A DNA stretch of 64,000 nucleotides, from IMG/VR virus record IMGVR_UViG_3300032320_001919. One strand, 5' to 3'. The translations under genes were made by a program, and so were the position numbers. Of the stretch, positions 24,394 to 41,209 are shown piece after piece; positions within the stretch are counted from its first letter, which is position 1, and each line of letters begins with the position of its first letter. The stretch comes from an uncultured virus (IMG/VR IMGVR_UViG_3300032320_001919). Taxonomy: Duplodnaviria; Heunggongvirae; Uroviricota; Caudoviricetes. The notes under the pieces were generated by a model. That model saw only the letters and a program-made list of their open reading frames with translations. It made no database searches and was not told the DNA's origin.

Positions 24394-24915
24394 ATGGTAT
24401 ACACGGTCTACAAAATAACAAATAAGCTAAACGAAAAATACTATATCGGTGTTCATAAAACAACTAACCCAAACGATGCCTATATGGGTAGTGGAATAGC
24501 GATAAAGAATGCGATACGAAAGTATGGCAAAGAAAATTTCGAGAAAGAAATTCTTCTAATATCAGAAGATAAACAGACAGCGTATGATTTAGAAAAACAA
24601 CTTACTGTCGATTTTGATAAATCAAACACATATAACATGAAAAGAGGCGGAGTTGGTGGATTTGAAGTAGAATCTGCTAAACTTGGTTACCAAAAAATGG
24701 TAGAAAAGGTTCCTCCTAATGTAGCTGGCAAAATATCTTTTGATAAAAAAGTAGGCATGTTTGCAAGGTCTGAAGAAGAATTTCTTAAAGACAGTAGAAA
24801 AGGCGGTCTTGCAAACAGAGGCAAACCTAAATCTGAAGAATTCAAACAGAAACTTAGGGAAGTCTGGAAACTTAAGAAGCAAGCGATGGCAAATGGGGAG
24901 CCTAGCAGCTCATAA
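24394..24915 (+). CDS. GIY-YIG (Seg-like) homing endonuclease
   Basis: TVYKITN..KYYIGVH...YMGSG...YN motifs, NUMOD3-like C-terminus. Confidence 0.85.
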   Translation: MVYTVYKITNKLNEKYYIGVHKTTNPNDAYMGSGIAIKNAIRKYGKENFEKEILLISEDKQTAYDLEKQLTVDFDKSNTYNMKRGGVGGFEVESAKLGYQKMVEKVPPNVAGKISFDKKVGMFARSEEEFLKDSRKGGLANRGKPKSEEFKQKLREVWKLKKQAMANGEPSSS

Positions 24916-24963
24916 CTGCTTGCCGTAATGGCCGAGAAAGTTCGATTCTTTCCGCTTGCACCA
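24879..24963 (+). tRNA. atypical tRNA with CAT anticodon and long variable arm
   Basis: GCAAGCG/CGCTTGC acceptor, AGCAG-CTCATAA-CTGCT, GCC-GTAAT-GGC V-arm, TTCGATT, ACCA. Confidence 0.7.
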
Positions 24964-34766: not shown

Positions 34767-34854
34767 TGGCGGAAGGTAAGGGATTCGAACCCTTGGAACC
34801 TTTCAGTTCGTCTCGTTAGCAGTGAGGTGCCTTCGACCACTCGGCCAACCTTCC
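34767..34854 (-). tRNA. trnS: tRNA-Ser(GCT)
   Basis: GGAAGGT acceptor, CTGCTAA loop, long V-arm, GCCA. Confidence 0.85.
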
Positions 34855-35282
34855 TAATCTTGAATGTAAATCGTAGTGTTATCCGCGCCATAGTCCTTAA
34901 CAAGTCGGAAAAGCCAACGAGCGTTTCTCGGATGCAAACGAATACAACCATGAGAAGCAGGACGACCCAGCTTATTTATGGCGTCTGTTGCATGGATAGC
35001 ATATCCGCCATGAAAAAAGATAGAGTGAGGCATTGGGGCGTTGTTGTACTTGCTAGAGTAGTGCATCTTGGTAAGATAATAGGGCTGGTAGATACCACGA
35101 GGCGTAGAGAAACCCTTACGACCTGTAGAAACATCCCACTCAAAATAATCGGTTGGAGTCTCTACATACATTGTTTGGTCTGAGACATCGACTACGATTG
35201 TTACCTCTTCAGCCTTTGCTCCAGTAACAAGCATGAAAATAGCTGCAAGAACAGCTGTAACCATAACGAAAAACTTAGCCAT
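34854..35282 (-). CDS. L,D-transpeptidase (YkuD family) with signal peptide
   Basis: VSTG..G..TP.G, AIH...LG.PASHGCIRL. Confidence 0.9.
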   Translation of the reverse strand: MAKFFVMVTAVLAAIFMLVTGAKAEEVTIVVDVSDQTMYVETPTDYFEWDVSTGRKGFSTPRGIYQPYYLTKMHYSSKYNNAPMPHSIFFHGGYAIHATDAINKLGRPASHGCIRLHPRNARWLFRLVKDYGADNTTIYIQD

Positions 35283-35852: not shown

Positions 35853-35928
35853 TGGTGCAACCTCTCTGGATCGAACAGAGTTCTTTCGCTCTTCAGGCGG
35901 ACGTGAGCACCAGCTTCACCAAGGTTGC
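35853..35928 (-). tRNA. trnF: tRNA-Phe(GAA)
   Basis: CGC-CTGAAGA-GCG, TTCGATC, ACCA. Confidence 0.8.
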
Positions 35929-36419
35929 TTTAAAGAAGAAAGAACTATTTTCCCATTTGCTCTTTCTTGTTTTCCTAACTTAATATGTTTCTTTAAAAGA
36001 GAAACATCATAAAATATCTCGTTCATGATAAGAACATCATAATCGATAGTATCGAGGTATTTTTCATCACCAAAAACTATTTCATAGAAAATTTGATTGA
36101 GGTTCATCGTATAAACAGCACCGTCATAACCTCTTTCTCTGTTCTCTATACCTATTACATTAAAATTGTTTTTTGTTAAAAGTAATGGTATAATCCCTGT
36201 GCCAGTACCAAGATCAACTATCTTTTTATTACGATAAAGATCCGGATTAGAAATAATGTCTAAGGCTATCTTAGGGTTTGCATAATGAGGATTAGGAAAC
36301 CGATCGTAACCGTACATGTGTTTCCCACTATCATATCCTGGGATATTAATTCCCTCTATGACCAAATGAGCTCTTTCTGACCAAATCTTTTCGTTATCTG
36401 CGTTTAGATAAGACTTCAT
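35916..36419 (-). CDS. class I SAM-dependent methyltransferase
   Basis: KIVDLGTGTG motif I, VIGIE motif II. Confidence 0.75.
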   Translation of the reverse strand: MKSYLNADNEKIWSERAHLVIEGINIPGYDSGKHMYGYDRFPNPHYANPKIALDIISNPDLYRNKKIVDLGTGTGIIPLLLTKNNFNVIGIENRERGYDGAVYTMNLNQIFYEIVFGDEKYLDTIDYDVLIMNEIFYDVSLLKKHIKLGKQERANGKIVLSSLKQPW

Positions 36420-36434
36420 ATTGCACACCTATAA

Positions 36435-36528
36435 TGGAGCATCCGACAGGATTCGAACCTGCATCAGCCATCGCTGGCTACTTCCAGTTACCTTACTCTT
36501 GGTTCGTAGCCAAGGTGGATACGGATGC
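36435..36528 (-). ncRNA. rewired tRNA-like RNA with ACG (Arg) anticodon arm
   Basis: perfect acceptor stem, T-arm and TCCA end; the anticodon arm follows the acceptor after 7 nt and the D-loop-like segment lies 3' of it. Confidence 0.7.
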
Positions 36529-36691: not shown

Positions 36692-36768
36692 TGGTTGCGG
36701 TGTGTTGGTGCCGCCCCAACTCCTTCGGCTTATGAGACCGACGACTTATCTAATTTGTCCTACCCGCC
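36692..36768 (-). tRNA. trnM: tRNA-Met(CAT), initiator-like 3' end, atypical T-loop
   Basis: TCGGT-CTCATAA-GCCGA, CCGCAACCA end; T-loop GGCGGCA. Confidence 0.6.
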
Positions 36769-37259
36769 TTTTTATTCTTTAAAGATTCAGAAATTTTCTT
36801 TCTTACTTCTTCACTATGCGTTCTAGTTTTTGCTTTTTCAGAAAGTTTTTTTCGAGTTTCAAAACTTAAAGTTCTTTTTCTGTTAGCTTCACTAAGTTTT
36901 TTTCGAGTTTCTTCGCTATGTTTTGAACCTAAGCGACTTATCTTATTCTTAGTTTCTTCAGTATGACGTTTTCCGAGAAAATGAGGACCACCTTCTCCAC
37001 CGACTCCTGCATTATACGTATCTGATCTAGCAACAAATTCTTCTGTAATTATTTCACGTTCTTTATTATTCATTTCTTGTTCAGAACTAAGAACATACAG
37101 TATTTCTTTTTCGAACTTGTTTTTACCATATTTCTTAATGGCTACCTTGAGTAGTTTACCTGAACCAAAATAGTTATCATCTAGTTTTTCTGTTTGGTGC
37201 TTTCCAATATAGAACTTACCATTGACAGTATTCGTTATCTTATAAATCGTGTAGAACAT
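36750..37259 (-). CDS. GIY-YIG homing endonuclease with NUMOD3 repeats
   Basis: TIYKITN..KFYIGKH..YFGSG; four H(S/T)EETxxK(I/L)S-type repeats. Confidence 0.85.
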   Translation of the reverse strand: MFYTIYKITNTVNGKFYIGKHQTEKLDDNYFGSGKLLKVAIKKYGKNKFEKEILYVLSSEQEMNNKEREIITEEFVARSDTYNAGVGGEGGPHFLGKRHTEETKNKISRLGSKHSEETRKKLSEANRKRTLSFETRKKLSEKAKTRTHSEEVRKKISESLKNKKAGRTN

Positions 37260-39285: not shown

Positions 39286-39889
39286 ATTTTTCTTCCTTTA
39301 TACCAACCATCTGGTATAAGATTAGTATCTTTTTTTATTTTTTTATTTTCTTTTCCGTTAGTAATCCAACAAGTTCCATATTGGGAATTGTATATTCCGC
39401 TCGCTTTGTTTTTTCTAGCATCTTTTATCTTTTGTTTAGTTTCTTCGGTATGTTTTTTTCCTAAAAAGGTTTTTCTATCGTGTGTAATTTTGCCTTCTTT
39501 ATGAGATCTTTTCATAGTTTCCGAAGAATGCGATGTGGCCTTTTTAATAGTTTCTGACGATCTTGTTTTTGTAAATTTTTAATACGAACTTCAGTTAAAT
39601 TTAATTTAGAATTAATATAGCCGAATCCACCCTTACCACCATCACAAAGATTATAGTTTAGTTCCGGATCAGGCACTACTAAAATTTTTTCTAAAGTATT
39701 CATATGTTTTTCAGATTCGCAAACGAACAGTATTTCTTTATGGAAGTTTTCTATTCCATATTTTTTTATGGCAAATTTTAAACGTTTGCCTGAACCAAGA
39801 TAATTATCTTTTATGTTTTTGGTTTGATGTTTACCAATATAAAATTTGCCATTAACAACATTTGTAGTTTTATAGATTGTATAGAACAT
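39276..39889 (-). pseudogene. GIY-YIG homing endonuclease split into two frames (39512-39889 and 39276-39515)
   Basis: GIY-YIG domain in the first ORF; NUMOD3 and WITNG...GWYKGR tail in the -1 frame. Confidence 0.7.
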
Positions 39890-40075: not shown

Positions 40076-40158
40076 TGGAGGACTGGGTGGGACTCGAACC
40101 CACGATGTTGTATAGCAGATTAAAAGTCTGCGCCGTTCGCCACTACGGTAACCAGTCC
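40076..40158 (-). tRNA. trnK: tRNA-Lys(TTT) with extended variable region, U73
   Basis: GCAGA-CTTTTAA-TCTGC, 11-nt V region, TCCA. Confidence 0.8.
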
Positions 40159-40554: not shown

Positions 40555-40637
40555 TGGTGGGCAGGTGTGGTTACGCTCCACTCCCGTATGGATGGGTTTT
40601 ACAGACCCACTGCCGAAACTATCGACTTTACCTACCC
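40555..40637 (-). tRNA. trnY: tRNA-Tyr(GTA)
   Basis: TGGGT-CTGTAAA-ACCCA, V-arm, T-loop AGCGTAA, ACCA. Confidence 0.75.
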
Positions 40638-41124: not shown

Positions 41125-41209
41125 TGGAGGACCAGGTGGGACTCGAACCCACGGTGCGTTTCCGCGACAGATTAAGAGTCTGCTACCATAGCCACTAGGT
41201 GACTGGTCC
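41125..41209 (-). tRNA. trnK: tRNA-Lys(CTT) with long variable arm, U73
   Basis: GCAGA-CTCTTAA-TCTGT, V-arm GCG-GAAA-CGC, TCCA. Confidence 0.8.

What the first reader, a model, noticed from the sequence alone, without database searches (positions are those of the whole stretch)
36435..36528. Topologically rewired tRNA-Arg(ACG)-like RNA: anticodon arm comes before the D-loop
Seen (- strand): GCATCCG-TA-TCCA-C-[CTTGG-CTACGAA-CCAAG]-AGTAAGGTAAC-TGGA-AGT-[AGCCA-GCGA-TGGCT]-GAT-[GCAGG-TTCGAAT-CCTGT]-CGGATGC-T-CCA. Acceptor, T-arm, CCA and a textbook ACG anticodon arm are intact. But the anticodon arm sits inside the TCCA/TGGA 'D-stem', the GG-containing D-loop-like segment lies 3' of it, and a GNRA hairpin occupies the usual anticodon position. 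The other tRNAs in the window cover 19 amino acids and Arg is the only one missing. Inference: a non-cloverleaf tRNA that may rebuild the L-shape with different connectivity, or an anticodon-nuclease decoy; standard tRNA finders would probably miss it.
Basis: partly seen in the sequence, partly recalled or inferred. Interest (0 to 1): 0.82.

Follow-up and report, generated by a model that had tools for sequence, protein, structure and literature searches.

The report
Phage arginine tRNA with re-threaded core
This is a real, conserved phage gene for an arginine tRNA whose core segments are joined in a different order from the textbook cloverleaf, one of a large class of phage tRNAs that gene finders and published annotations miss.

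Summary
ARAGORN misses it and Rfam scores it below threshold. It is not a one-off. I collected 117 distinct relatives, almost all from phage tRNA arrays. They are unannotated in 12 of 12 matching GenBank phage records.

Acceptor, anticodon and T stems covary strongly. The stem that encloses the anticodon arm pairs nt 11-13 with the three bases just 5' of UAAC (C11:G38, C12:G37 here) and has four Watson-Crick pair types. The following AACUGGA behaves as a D loop:
- Its R15-like base covaries with the last variable base, A:U 112 and G:C 5, with no exceptions.
- Its position-20 base is A in 114 of 114 Arg members and U in the Ile members.

Anticodons are Arg (ACG, UCG, UCU, CCU) or Ile. Arrays with the element rarely hold a canonical tRNA-Arg(ACG): 2 of 45 against 21 of 30 controls.

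Best reading (0.7): a working CGN-decoding tRNA-Arg that rebuilds the L-shape with three core linkers cyclically permuted. Expression, charging and the selective advantage are untested. I found no prior description.

The parts
36522..36528 (-). Acceptor stem, 5' strand (GCATCCG, RNA nt 1-7)
   Evidence: Pairs with 36439-36445. All 7 pairs show compensatory changes and 99.8% of cells are paired on 88 sequences.
36519..36521 (-). Connector U8 A9 U10
   Evidence: T8 and A9 are invariant in alignments A1 and A2. nt 10 varies (T, A, G, C) without a covarying partner.
36516..36518 (-). Stem H, 5' strand (C11 C12 A13), read as the equivalent of the D-stem 3' strand
   Evidence: On 117 members, 11:38 is Watson-Crick in 117 (CG 99, AT 14, TA 3, GC 1) and 12:37 in 116 (CG 107, GC 7, AT 1, TA 1). 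13:36 is Watson-Crick in 27 and is A.A in this window.
36498..36514 (-). Anticodon arm CTTGG-CTACGAA-CCAAG; anticodon ACG at 36505-36507
   Evidence: All 5 stem pairs show compensatory changes and 98.4% of cells are paired. The loop is CTACGAA in 100 of 117 members; the others carry Arg or Ile anticodons.
36494..36497 (-). Linker AGUA from the anticodon stem 3' end back to stem H (replaces the 43-to-44 exit of a normal tRNA)
   Evidence: Three variable bases followed by A in most members. The role is inferred.
36491..36493 (-). Stem H, 3' strand (A36 G37 G38), read as the equivalent of the D-stem 5' strand
   Evidence: Partner of 36516-36518. In the Ile sister family these two positions were left free by the search pattern, and 12:37 is C:G 43, T:A 34, T:G 2, G:C 2, A:T 1.
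36483..36490 (-). D-loop-like segment UAACUGGA: A14-like, R15-like (A at 36488), G18G19-like (36484-36485), A20-like (36483)
   Evidence: The R15-like base covaries with the last variable base: A:T 112, G:C 5, none mixed. The base after GG is A in 114 of 114 Arg members and T in 3 of 3 Ile members. A20 is the main bacterial ArgRS determinant and U20 an IleRS determinant (PMC9976931 Table 1).
36463..36482 (-). Variable region with optional extra hairpin AGCCA-GCGA-TGGCT (36466-36479); last base T at 36463 is Y48-like
   Evidence: The region after GGA is 18 nt or longer in 24 of 117 members. 4 of 5 hairpin pairs show compensatory changes among the 22 long members of A1.
36446..36462 (-). T arm GCAGG-TTCGAAT-CCTGT
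   Evidence: 100% of cells are paired and 3 of 5 pairs show compensatory changes. The T loop has the canonical TTCRANY form in all 117.
36435..36445 (-). Acceptor stem 3' strand CGGATGC, discriminator T, encoded CCA
   Evidence: CCA is encoded in 103 of 117 members. Arg discriminators are T 65, G 32, A 15, C 2. U73 and A/G73 are listed as bacterial Arg determinants.

Best explanation
The element is a functional phage tRNA-Arg(ACG), read as ICG after host TadA editing, for CGU, CGC and CGA codons. It belongs to a widespread phage-borne class of tRNAs (Arg and Ile) that keep every module of a tRNA but join the core modules in a different order.

The chain runs: acceptor 5' strand, U8 A9 N10, a short strand (nt 11-13), straight into the anticodon arm, a 4-5-nt linker, the partner strand (nt 36-38), a D-loop-like AACUGGA, the variable region, the T arm, and the acceptor 3' strand.

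Mapped on a normal tRNA, nt 11-13 take the place of the D-stem 3' strand, which normally continues into the anticodon stem. nt 36-38 take the place of the D-stem 5' strand, which normally continues into the D loop. So the same stacked D/anticodon helix, the same D-loop/T-loop elbow and the same 15:48 pair can form. Only the three single-stranded joins are cyclically permuted: 7 to 22 instead of 7 to 10, 43 to 10 instead of 43 to 49, and 20/21 to 48/49 instead of 21 to 22.

Shown here: family conservation, covariation of all stems and of the 15:48-like pair, coupling of position 20 and the discriminator to the anticodon's amino acid, array context, and replacement of the canonical gene.

Inferred: the three-dimensional fold, processing, charging by ArgRS, I34 formation and decoding. 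Why phages prefer this form is unknown. Escape from a tRNA-directed host nuclease or other tRNA-directed immunity is my leading guess, at about 0.3.
For: 1. Family. 117 distinct members were parsed from IMG/VR, GenBank phages and the window. The exact motif occurs in about 140-170 IMG/VR stretches but gives only 8 matches in 185,579 bacterial and archaeal species genomes. 4 of those 8 are real, and all 4 lie beside other tRNA genes.

2. Structure.
- Acceptor 7 of 7, anticodon stem 5 of 5 and T stem 3 of 5 pairs show compensatory changes; 0 of 500 shuffles reach the observed covariation.
- In stem H, 11:38 plus 12:37 are Watson-Crick in 233 of 234 cells, against a shuffle mean of 184 (0 of 2000 shuffles reach it), with 4 pair types at each position.
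- The Levitt-like pair is A:T 112 and G:C 5, with none mixed (Fisher 6e-9, not corrected for relatedness). The five G:C cases are L223, L601 and three UCU members.

3. Identity.
- Anticodons are ACG 100, TCG 6, TCT 6, CCT 2, TAT 2, GAT 1.
- The position-20 analogue is A in 114 of 114 Arg members and T in 3 of 3 Ile members. The Ile discriminator is A in 3 of 3 and in 82 of 82 of the Ile sister family, where it was not set by the search pattern.
- These match the bacterial identity sets A20/C35 for Arg and A73/U20 for Ile (PMC9976931 Table 1, passages read).

4. Context.
- 72 of 120 loci hold 10 or more ARAGORN tRNAs (only 80 were fetched with long flanks). The four nearest tRNAs are on the same strand in 180 of 180 cases.
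- In 45 distinct arrays with 15 or more tRNAs, each other amino acid has a canonical tRNA in 71-96% (Tyr 40%). Canonical Arg(ACG) is present in 2 of 45 and any CGN-reading Arg tRNA in 9 of 45.
- In control arrays without the element the figures are 21 of 30 and 23 of 30. Fisher p is 1e-9 and 1e-6.
- Arrays with a rewired UCU member hold a canonical UCU in 0 of 6. Arrays with a rewired Ile hold a canonical Ile of the same anticodon in 0 of 12.

5. Demand. CGT, CGC and CGA make up 310 of 595 Arg codons in 41 long ORFs of the window.

6. Feasibility. The E. coli synthetase, EF-Tu and ribosome accept a tRNA with no D arm at all (PMC11551756, abstract and passages).
Against: - There is no expression, processing, charging or decoding evidence.
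- Both cultured phages whose whole array I checked, DLP_6 and Zooman, carry the rewired gene and also a canonical tRNA-Arg(ACG). Replacement is therefore not a rule, and in those phages the gene must add something other than simple decoding capacity.
- In this window stem H is only two Watson-Crick pairs plus an A.A. 13:36 is non-Watson-Crick in 90 of 117 members.
- RNAalifold predicts no D-like stem. The single-sequence minimum-energy fold pairs the region differently.
- The covariance-model alignment did not shift the TATACCC subfamily into register, so it shows 15 unpaired cells at 11:38. The 117 of 117 figure rests on my rule of anchoring on the TAA motif.
- Much of the sample was collected with patterns that fixed AAGGTAAC and/or GGA. 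Invariance of those bases is partly by construction. The variants that carry the argument came from scans that left them free.
- Sequences are related, so the exact tests overstate independence.
- The three-dimensional model is reasoning from textbook tRNA geometry, not a computed model.
Confidence: 0.7

Rival explanations
1. Decoy or sponge. The RNA shows an authentic tRNA-Arg anticodon arm, acceptor end and elbow to a host or rival-phage tRNA-directed nuclease or modifier, or to ArgRS or TadA. It soaks that factor up or triggers or blocks it, and is not used on the ribosome.
For: - DLP_6 and Zooman keep a canonical tRNA-Arg(ACG) next to it, so decoding capacity alone does not explain it there.
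- Phage tRNAs that counter tRNA-cleaving defences are documented (abstracts of PMC10264068 and PMC11464382).
- The same array holds other structurally odd tRNAs for Lys and Tyr, two isotypes those abstracts name as defence targets.
Against: - A decoy for an anticodon nuclease need not keep A20, the discriminator, the 12-bp acceptor/T branch and an encoded CCA all coupled to the anticodon's amino acid.
- A decoy would not be expected to replace the canonical isoacceptor in 43 of 45 arrays that otherwise cover nearly all amino acids.
- The architecture serves six anticodons of two amino acids. That fits a general adaptor better than a bait for one enzyme.
Confidence: 0.12
2. A floppy D-armless tRNA of the mitochondrial kind. 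The 7-nt connector simply replaces the D arm, the long segment after the anticodon arm is an unstructured or independently folded variable region, and no canonical L-shaped core forms.
For: - ARAGORN in mitochondrial mode of 88 members as D-armless Arg(acg).
- RNAalifold finds only the acceptor, anticodon and T helices.
- Stem H is very short.
Against: - The connector covaries with the bases 5' of UAAC at two to three positions.
- The 15:48-like pair covaries.
- The GG and a canonical T loop are kept in all 117 members.
None of this is expected if the elbow and core were lost.
Confidence: 0.08
3. A permuted gene whose transcript is cut and rejoined into a normal cloverleaf tRNA, as with permuted or split tRNA genes of red algae and archaea. 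T4-like phages do encode RNA repair enzymes.
For: Only the analogy. The segments are those of a normal tRNA in another order and the total length is about the same.
Against: - The 5' and 3' acceptor halves are already in normal order, so the move would need two cuts and two ligations inside the molecule.
- I saw no bulge-helix-bulge-like motif around the segment borders in the alignments.
- The family occurs in phages of Actinobacteria, Alpha- and Gammaproteobacteria, with no conserved neighbouring gene. The ORF next to the window's copy is found only in its two closest relatives.
- The covariation of H and of 15:48 is explained directly by the unprocessed chain.
Confidence: 0.03
4. A decaying tRNA-Arg pseudogene or a recombination scar in a tRNA array.
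For: GIY-YIG homing endonuclease genes sit in these arrays and could scramble tRNA genes. The window holds another degenerate tRNA-like sequence at 36696-36767.
Against: There are 117 distinct, full-length, compensated copies across distant phages, scoring 45-96 bits on the family model against 32 bits or less for canonical tRNAs.
Confidence: 0.02

Closest known systems
Canonical bacterial and phage tRNA-Arg(ACG) (Rfam RF00005, clan CL00001)
   Same: 7-bp acceptor stem, discriminator, CCA, 5-bp anticodon stem with a CUACGAA loop, 5-bp T stem with a TTCGAAT loop, U8, a GG that can meet the T loop, an A20-like base and an R15:Y48-like covarying pair. By my recollection the acceptor stem GCAUCCG and the D-loop-like AACUGGA closely resemble E. 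coli tRNA-Arg(ACG); that comparison was not made in any call.
   Different: No D hairpin between nt 9 and the anticodon arm. The D-loop-like segment lies 3' of the anticodon arm, and the anticodon arm is the hairpin end of the D-stem-like helix. The general tRNA model scores members 22-36 bits (11 of 20 reach the 29-bit gathering score), against 33.5-67.6 bits for the 25 window tRNAs that pass it. The window's own copy fails it.
D-armless mitochondrial tRNAs (mammalian mt-tRNA-Ser(AGY), nematode mt-tRNAs) and the engineered E. coli 'mini HisT'
   Same: A short connector instead of a D arm 5' of the anticodon arm. ARAGORN's mitochondrial mode recognises 21 of 88 members. Mini HisT shows that bacterial translation tolerates loss of the D arm (PMC11551756).
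   Different: Those tRNAs have lost the D-loop/T-loop elbow. This class keeps GG, a canonical T loop, 15:48 covariation and a covarying stem between the connector and the downstream segment. It also works, if it works, in the bacterial cytosol. PMC11551756 says only arm-size variation is known among cytosolic tRNAs, and PMC7609411 has no mention of phage or virus.
Circularly permuted and split tRNA genes (Cyanidioschyzon merolae, some archaea)
   Same: tRNA segments are encoded in a non-standard order (recalled knowledge).
   Different: There the mature tRNA is a normal cloverleaf after processing and the permutation moves the acceptor halves. Here the ends are normal, the permutation is internal, and the covariation fits the collinear RNA.
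allo-tRNAs and 8/4 or 9/3 tRNAs from metagenomes and phages (PMC5389517)
   Same: Non-standard tRNAs, some in phage tRNA clusters, overlooked by standard annotation (abstract and passages).
   Different: They are still cloverleaves with altered stem lengths. This class keeps the 7/5 branch and changes connectivity instead.
Phage tRNAs that escape tRNA-targeting defences (anticodon-loop variants in mycobacteriophages, PMC10264068; the virally encoded tRNA that neutralizes PARIS, PMC11464382)
   Same: Phage-encoded replacement tRNAs in arrays. This is a possible reason for a structurally deviant but functional tRNA (abstracts only).
   Different: Those escape by point changes in the loop. Here the anticodon loop is the standard one and the core is re-threaded. 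No defence aimed at tRNA-Arg or tRNA-Ile was identified in my searches.
Viral tRNA-like structures at the 3' ends of plant RNA virus genomes
   Same: An L-shape mimic built with non-tRNA connectivity that can be aminoacylated (recalled knowledge).
   Different: Those are genome ends, not decoders, and have no functional anticodon arm in a tRNA array.

Membership tests
tRNA (RF00005 and the textbook definition) | 7-bp acceptor stem, discriminator and 3' CCA | tested here: met
   The window copy has 7 of 7 pairs. In the family 99.8% of cells are paired, with compensatory changes in all 7 pairs. CCA is encoded in 103 of 117.
tRNA (RF00005 and the textbook definition) | 5-bp anticodon stem with a 7-nt loop, U33 and a purine at 37 | tested here: met
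   The loop is CTACGAA. 5 of 5 stem pairs are compensated. Partly set by the search patterns.
tRNA (RF00005 and the textbook definition) | 5-bp T stem with a T-Psi-C-R-A loop | tested here: met
   TTCGAAT in the window. All 117 members have TTCRANY. 100% of stem cells are paired.
tRNA (RF00005 and the textbook definition) | D arm as a closed hairpin between nt 9 and nt 26, 5' of the anticodon arm (cloverleaf order) | tested here: not met
   Only 7-8 nt separate the acceptor and anticodon stems in all members. The D-loop-like segment lies 3' of the anticodon arm.
tRNA (RF00005 and the textbook definition) | Core tertiary signature: U8, R15:Y48 covariation, G18G19 | tested here: met
   T8 is invariant. 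The 15:48 analogue is A:T 112 and G:C 5, none mixed. GG is kept in all members (GG was partly fixed by the patterns).
tRNA (RF00005 and the textbook definition) | Score at or above the Rfam gathering threshold, or a call by ARAGORN | tested here: not met
   For the window copy the best clan match is tRNA-Sec at 23.8 bits against 47, and ARAGORN makes no call. Across the family, ARAGORN of 88, and RF00005 reaches 29 bits in 11 of 20 tested, with a maximum of 35.8.
tRNA (RF00005 and the textbook definition) | Aminoacylation and decoding on the ribosome | not testable with these tools
   Indirect evidence only: identity nucleotides and replacement of the canonical gene.
D-armless (mitochondrial-type) tRNA | Loss of the D-loop/T-loop interaction, with no GG and a degenerate T loop | tested here: not met
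   GG and a canonical T loop are kept. The connector pairs with a downstream strand.
Permuted or split tRNA gene | The 3' half is encoded upstream of the 5' half or on separate loci, with processing motifs at the junctions | tested here: not met
   The acceptor 5' and 3' strands are in normal order in one gene. No junction motif was seen in A1 or A2. RNA processing itself is not testable here.
Any described Rfam family | A match at the gathering score | tested here: not met
   No family reaches its threshold at the locus among 4227 models.

The most novel reading that the evidence does not exclude
Hundreds of phages, infecting Proteobacteria, Actinobacteria and probably Bacteroidota, use a previously unrecognised structural class of working tRNAs (Arg and Ile). 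In this class the D-stem strands, D loop and anticodon arm are threaded in a cyclically permuted order. If so, bacterial RNase P, the CCA enzyme, ArgRS and IleRS, TadA, EF-Tu and the ribosome all accept a non-cloverleaf adaptor, and phages keep it because the altered backbone path makes it invisible or resistant to tRNA-directed host immunity.
Probability: 0.55. Interest if true: 0.95.

Novelty: new variant of a known kind. Interest (0 to 1): 0.9.

Why it matters
The cloverleaf order of tRNA arms is one of the most conserved features in biology. A 2024 paper states that arm-size variation is the entire structural diversity known among cytosolic tRNAs (PMC11551756).

A natural, widespread adaptor with re-threaded connectivity would matter in four ways:
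- It would show that the translation apparatus reads three-dimensional shape and a few identity bases, not chain topology.
- It would give a new scaffold for engineered, orthogonal or nuclease-resistant tRNAs.
- It would mean that tRNA sets of many phage genomes are under-annotated. That includes about 40 Streptomyces phages and a crAss-like phage for the Ile form, and Xanthomonas, Stenotrophomonas, Rhizobium and Microbacterium phages for the Arg form.
- It would offer a concrete handle on the contest between phage tRNAs and tRNA-directed defences.

Several carriers are cultured phages with laboratory hosts, so the central claims can be tested directly.

Tried and rejected
Counted on 88 and on 117 sequences, it shows no covariation and many mismatches. 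At the matching offset in the slide test there are only 1, 1 and 2 pair types.
- Single-sequence folding and RNAalifold. Neither finds the short stem H, so they are uninformative for a 2-3-bp helix.
- MAFFT alignment A2 misaligns members with 8-nt connectors. The covariance-model alignment A3 still leaves the TATACCC subfamily one base out of register. I therefore relied on a parse anchored on the TAA motif, which is chosen without reference to pairing.
- Intron reading. ARAGORN with introns adds only two spurious calls.
- Other amino acids. A scan for wobble bases other than A gave 32 stretches. 7 are real (6 TCG, 1 CCT) and 25 are chance matches in coding-like DNA. The family model over 1.23 Mb of control array DNA found only Arg and Ile forms, 4 hits in 3 of 100 loci.
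- A conserved partner gene. The 170-aa ORF just downstream occurs only in the two closest relatives. The L,D-transpeptidase-like ORF and the homing endonucleases are array neighbours, not specific partners.
- Expression data and the whole genome. Not available.
- Prior description. Eight full-text searches and targeted reading found nothing that describes this wiring. The review PMC7609411 has no occurrence of 'phage' or 'virus'. PMC5389517 concerns 8/4 and 9/3 cloverleaves. In PMC10690425 the candidate that overlaps a tRNA-Arg call, DNAVirus_2961, is a 56-nt motif of Bifidobacterium phages; two of that paper's large supplementary files and one more could not be searched. The XacN1 paper used tRNAscan-SE and does not mention the element.
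- Earlier notes of this scan hold no look-alike sequence.
Full report
**1. What is in the window**

On the minus strand, 36528 to 36435 reads GCATCCG-TAT-CCA-C-CTTGG-CTACGAA-CCAAG-AGTA-AGG-TAACTGGA-AGT-AGCCA-GCGA-TGGCT-GAT-GCAGG-TTCGAAT-CCTGT-CGGATGC-T-CCA. It begins 5 nt after tRNA-Cys and lies on the same strand as the array.

The array sits in a T4-like phage whose nearest named relative is Stenotrophomonas phage DLP_6. ARAGORN lists 26 tRNAs for 18 amino acids and skips this element; Arg and Tyr are both absent from its list. Rfam's best match here is tRNA-Sec at 23.8 bits against a gathering score of 47 (E 0.91). The 25 window tRNAs that pass the Rfam tRNA model score 33.5-67.6 bits. The count of 19 amino acids is not reproduced by the finder.

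**2. It is one member of a large phage family**

BLAST found unannotated look-alikes in DLP_6 and in Microbacterium phage Zooman. With a second query it found 12 GenBank records in all. The hosts are Xanthomonas, Stenotrophomonas, Rhizobium, Mesorhizobium and Microbacterium. In none of the 12 is the element annotated.

Motif scans of IMG/VR gave these results:

| Scan | Result |
|---|---|
| Anticodon loop plus AAGGTAAC | about 170 stretches; 103 of the 122 matches examined have a T loop downstream |
| D-loop motif relaxed | about 140 stretches |
| D segment left free | 81 stretches |
| Same motif in one genome from each of 185,579 bacterial and archaeal species | 8 matches; 4 real, all beside other tRNA genes |

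After removing duplicates I parsed 117 distinct members. ARAGORN's default mode of 88. Its mitochondrial mode as D-armless Arg. The general Rfam tRNA model reaches its threshold in 11 of 20 members tested, never above 35.8 bits.

A covariance model of the family (R1) scores members 45-96 bits and canonical tRNAs 32 bits or less. It gives a single hit in the window, at 85.3 bits, E 7e-18.

**3. Which pairs are real**

On the 88-sequence alignment:
- The acceptor stem (7 of 7 pairs), anticodon stem (5 of 5) and T stem (3 of 5) show compensatory changes, with 98-100% of cells paired.
- 0 of 500 shuffles reach the observed covariation (the same picture on the model-based alignment).

10:47 is unpaired in 30 of 88 and 13:43 in 72 of 88. 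11:46 and 12:45 never vary.

Variants from the less constrained scans show the true partner of the 5' connector. It is the three bases immediately 5' of the TAAY motif.

| Pair | Counts on 117 members |
|---|---|
| 11:38 | C:G 99, A:T 14, T:A 3, G:C 1 |
| 12:37 | C:G 107, G:C 7, A:T 1, T:A 1, A:C 1 |
| 13:36 | Watson-Crick in 27, mostly C.A otherwise |

Sliding the 3' strand destroys the signal. Shuffling never reaches 233 of 234 (0 of 2000).

The hairpin with the GCGA loop is an optional arm in the variable region. It is long enough to form in 24 of 117 members.

**4. The segment after the stem behaves as a D loop**

The segment is U-A-A-C-U-G-G-A.
- Its third base covaries with the last base before the T stem: A with T in 112 members and G with C in 5, with no mixed case. 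The G:C cases are L223, L601 and three UCU members. This is the pattern of the R15:Y48 Levitt pair of ordinary tRNAs (described in PMC9976931).
- The base after GG is A in all 114 Arg members and T in the Ile members.
- A20 is the main bacterial ArgRS determinant. U20 and A73 are IleRS determinants (PMC9976931 Table 1).
- The Ile members have discriminator A in 3 of 3 and in 82 of 82 of the larger Ile sample.
- Arg discriminators are U, G or A in 112 of 114. All three are listed as bacterial Arg determinants.

**5. The model**

I read nt 11-13 as the equivalent of the D-stem 3' strand, the strand that normally runs on into the anticodon stem. I read nt 36-38 as the equivalent of the D-stem 5' strand, the strand that normally runs on into the D loop.

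All helices and the elbow can then sit where they sit in a normal tRNA. Only the three single-stranded joins change partners: 7 to 22, 43 to 10, and 20/21 to 48/49. Total length is unchanged in the short members.

This step is inference from textbook tRNA geometry. I could not compute a 3D model.

**6. Function**

Anticodons are ACG 100, TCG 6, TCT 6, CCT 2, TAT 2 and GAT 1.

The elements lie in dense arrays. 72 of 120 loci hold 10 or more ARAGORN tRNAs, although only 80 loci were fetched with long flanks. The neighbours are on the same strand in 180 of 180 cases.

| Canonical gene present | Arrays with the element (45 distinct, 15 or more tRNAs) | Control arrays without it (30; same +-10 kb sampling) | Fisher p |
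|---|---|---|---|
| tRNA-Arg(ACG) | 2 | 21 | 1e-9 |
| any CGN-reading tRNA-Arg | 9 | 23 | 1e-6 |

In the 45 arrays, every other amino acid has a canonical tRNA in 71-96% (Tyr 40%).

Further points:
- Arrays with a rewired UCU member never hold a canonical UCU (0 of 6). One contig carries three rewired Arg tRNAs in a row.
- The window's long ORFs use CGT, CGC or CGA for 310 of 595 Arg codons.
- Against a simple replacement story, DLP_6 and Zooman carry both the rewired gene and a canonical Arg(ACG). Within 6 kb of the XacN1 copy the only canonical Arg is UCU.

**7. A sister family for isoleucine**

The family model found Ile forms in control DNA. A motif scan for them estimates about 470 IMG/VR stretches.
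- 118 of 121 matches parse as complete tRNA-like genes, giving 82 distinct sequences.
- Anticodons are UAU 67, GAU 13 and CAU 2.
- 11:38 is Watson-Crick in 82 of 82. 12:37 is C:G 43, T:A 34, T:G 2, G:C 2, A:T 1, at positions the pattern left free.
- The discriminator is A in 82 of 82. The 15:48 analogue is A:T 77 and A:C 5.
- ARAGORN overlaps 2 of 118 copies.
- Most sit in loci with few other tRNAs. In the 12 larger arrays tested, a canonical Ile with the same anticodon is present in 0 of 12. The overall Ile comparison with controls is not significant (p 0.1-0.2).
- BLAST finds this form, mostly unannotated, in 43 GenBank records: 40 Streptomyces phages, a crAss-like phage and two others.

**8. 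Why it exists**

This is unknown. No conserved partner gene was found. My searches named no defence that targets tRNA-Arg or tRNA-Ile.

The same window also holds tRNA-Lys genes with long extra arms and a Tyr tRNA-like gene with an abnormal T loop. Published abstracts show phage tRNAs countering tRNA-cleaving defences. Escape from tRNA-directed immunity is therefore my leading but unproven idea.

**9. Novelty**

Eight full-text searches and targeted reading found no description of this wiring. A 2024 paper states that arm-size variation is the entire known diversity of cytosolic tRNAs. Some supplements of PMC10690425 could not be searched. Subscription journals are outside the library.

It shares no sequence words with this element.

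**10. Verdict**

The best reading is a working, re-threaded tRNA-Arg (0.7). Expression, charging, decoding and the 3D fold remain to be shown.

Noticed in passing
window 40555-40637 (-): A Tyr(GTA) tRNA-like gene: acceptor GGGTAGG/CCTGCCC, anticodon arm TGGGT-CTGTAAA-ACCCA, A-CCA end, but a 4-bp T stem with loop AGCGTAA and no GG in the D region. ARAGORN misses it even in relaxed modes, and Rfam misses it at E up to 1.
   Followed up: partly
window 36696-36767 (-): A sub-threshold tRNA-like sequence (RF00005 26.6 bits against 29) with a CTCATAA loop (CAT), a weak acceptor stem and the T loop GGCGGCA. It is probably a degenerate copy and overlaps the 5' end of a GIY-YIG endonuclease ORF.
   Followed up: partly
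window 40076-40158 (-), 41125-41209 (-), 24879-24963 (+): tRNA-Lys(TTT) of 83 nt, tRNA-Lys(CTT) of 85 nt and a tRNA(CAT) of 85 nt all carry long variable arms, which is unusual for these isotypes. The CAT one is called by ARAGORN but is absent from the Rfam list at E up to 1.
   Followed up: no
window 35916-36428 (-): A 170-aa ORF starting just after the element contains a DLGTGTG motif typical of SAM-dependent methyltransferases (recalled). It has no PHROG match and occurs only in the two closest IMG/VR relatives (L297, L303).
   Followed up: partly
window 36750-37259 (-) and 39512-39889 (-): GIY-YIG-type homing endonuclease ORFs (phrog_314) lie inside the tRNA array. Homologues are common in other arrays that carry the rewired tRNA, which suggests a route for spread of tRNA cassettes.
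   Followed up: partly
IMG/VR loci L607 onward; GenBank, e.g. KM652554.1 about 75243-75294 and NC_055901.1 about 68455-68515: A sister family of re-threaded tRNA-Ile (mostly anticodon UAU), estimated at about 470 IMG/VR stretches. It is often the only or nearly the only tRNA in the locus and is unannotated in about 40 Streptomyces phages and a crAss-like phage.
   Followed up: partly
L341:3576-4059 (+): One IMG/VR contig carries three re-threaded Arg tRNAs close together (ACG, TCT, CCT), plus a canonical Arg(TCG) elsewhere in the locus.
   Followed up: partly
L301:5533-5614 (+): A re-threaded member with an apparent 8-nt anticodon loop (TGTTCTAA) and an 11-nt linker. It scores 44.9 bits on the family model. 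It may be a frameshifting or defective variant.
   Followed up: no
L606 (Xanthomonas phage XacN1 42569-46067) and L605:739-830 (DLP_6): Annotated tRNAs of unusual length: XacN1 tRNA-Thr 91 nt, Cys 89 nt, Asn 89 nt, and DLP_6 tRNA-Ile-TAT 92 nt. Other structurally unusual phage tRNAs may be common.
   Followed up: no
window 34854-35282 (-): A 142-aa ORF with a signal-peptide-like start and an HG..C motif resembling L,D-transpeptidase (YkuD) domains (recalled). It is conserved near the array in 14 related contigs.
   Followed up: no
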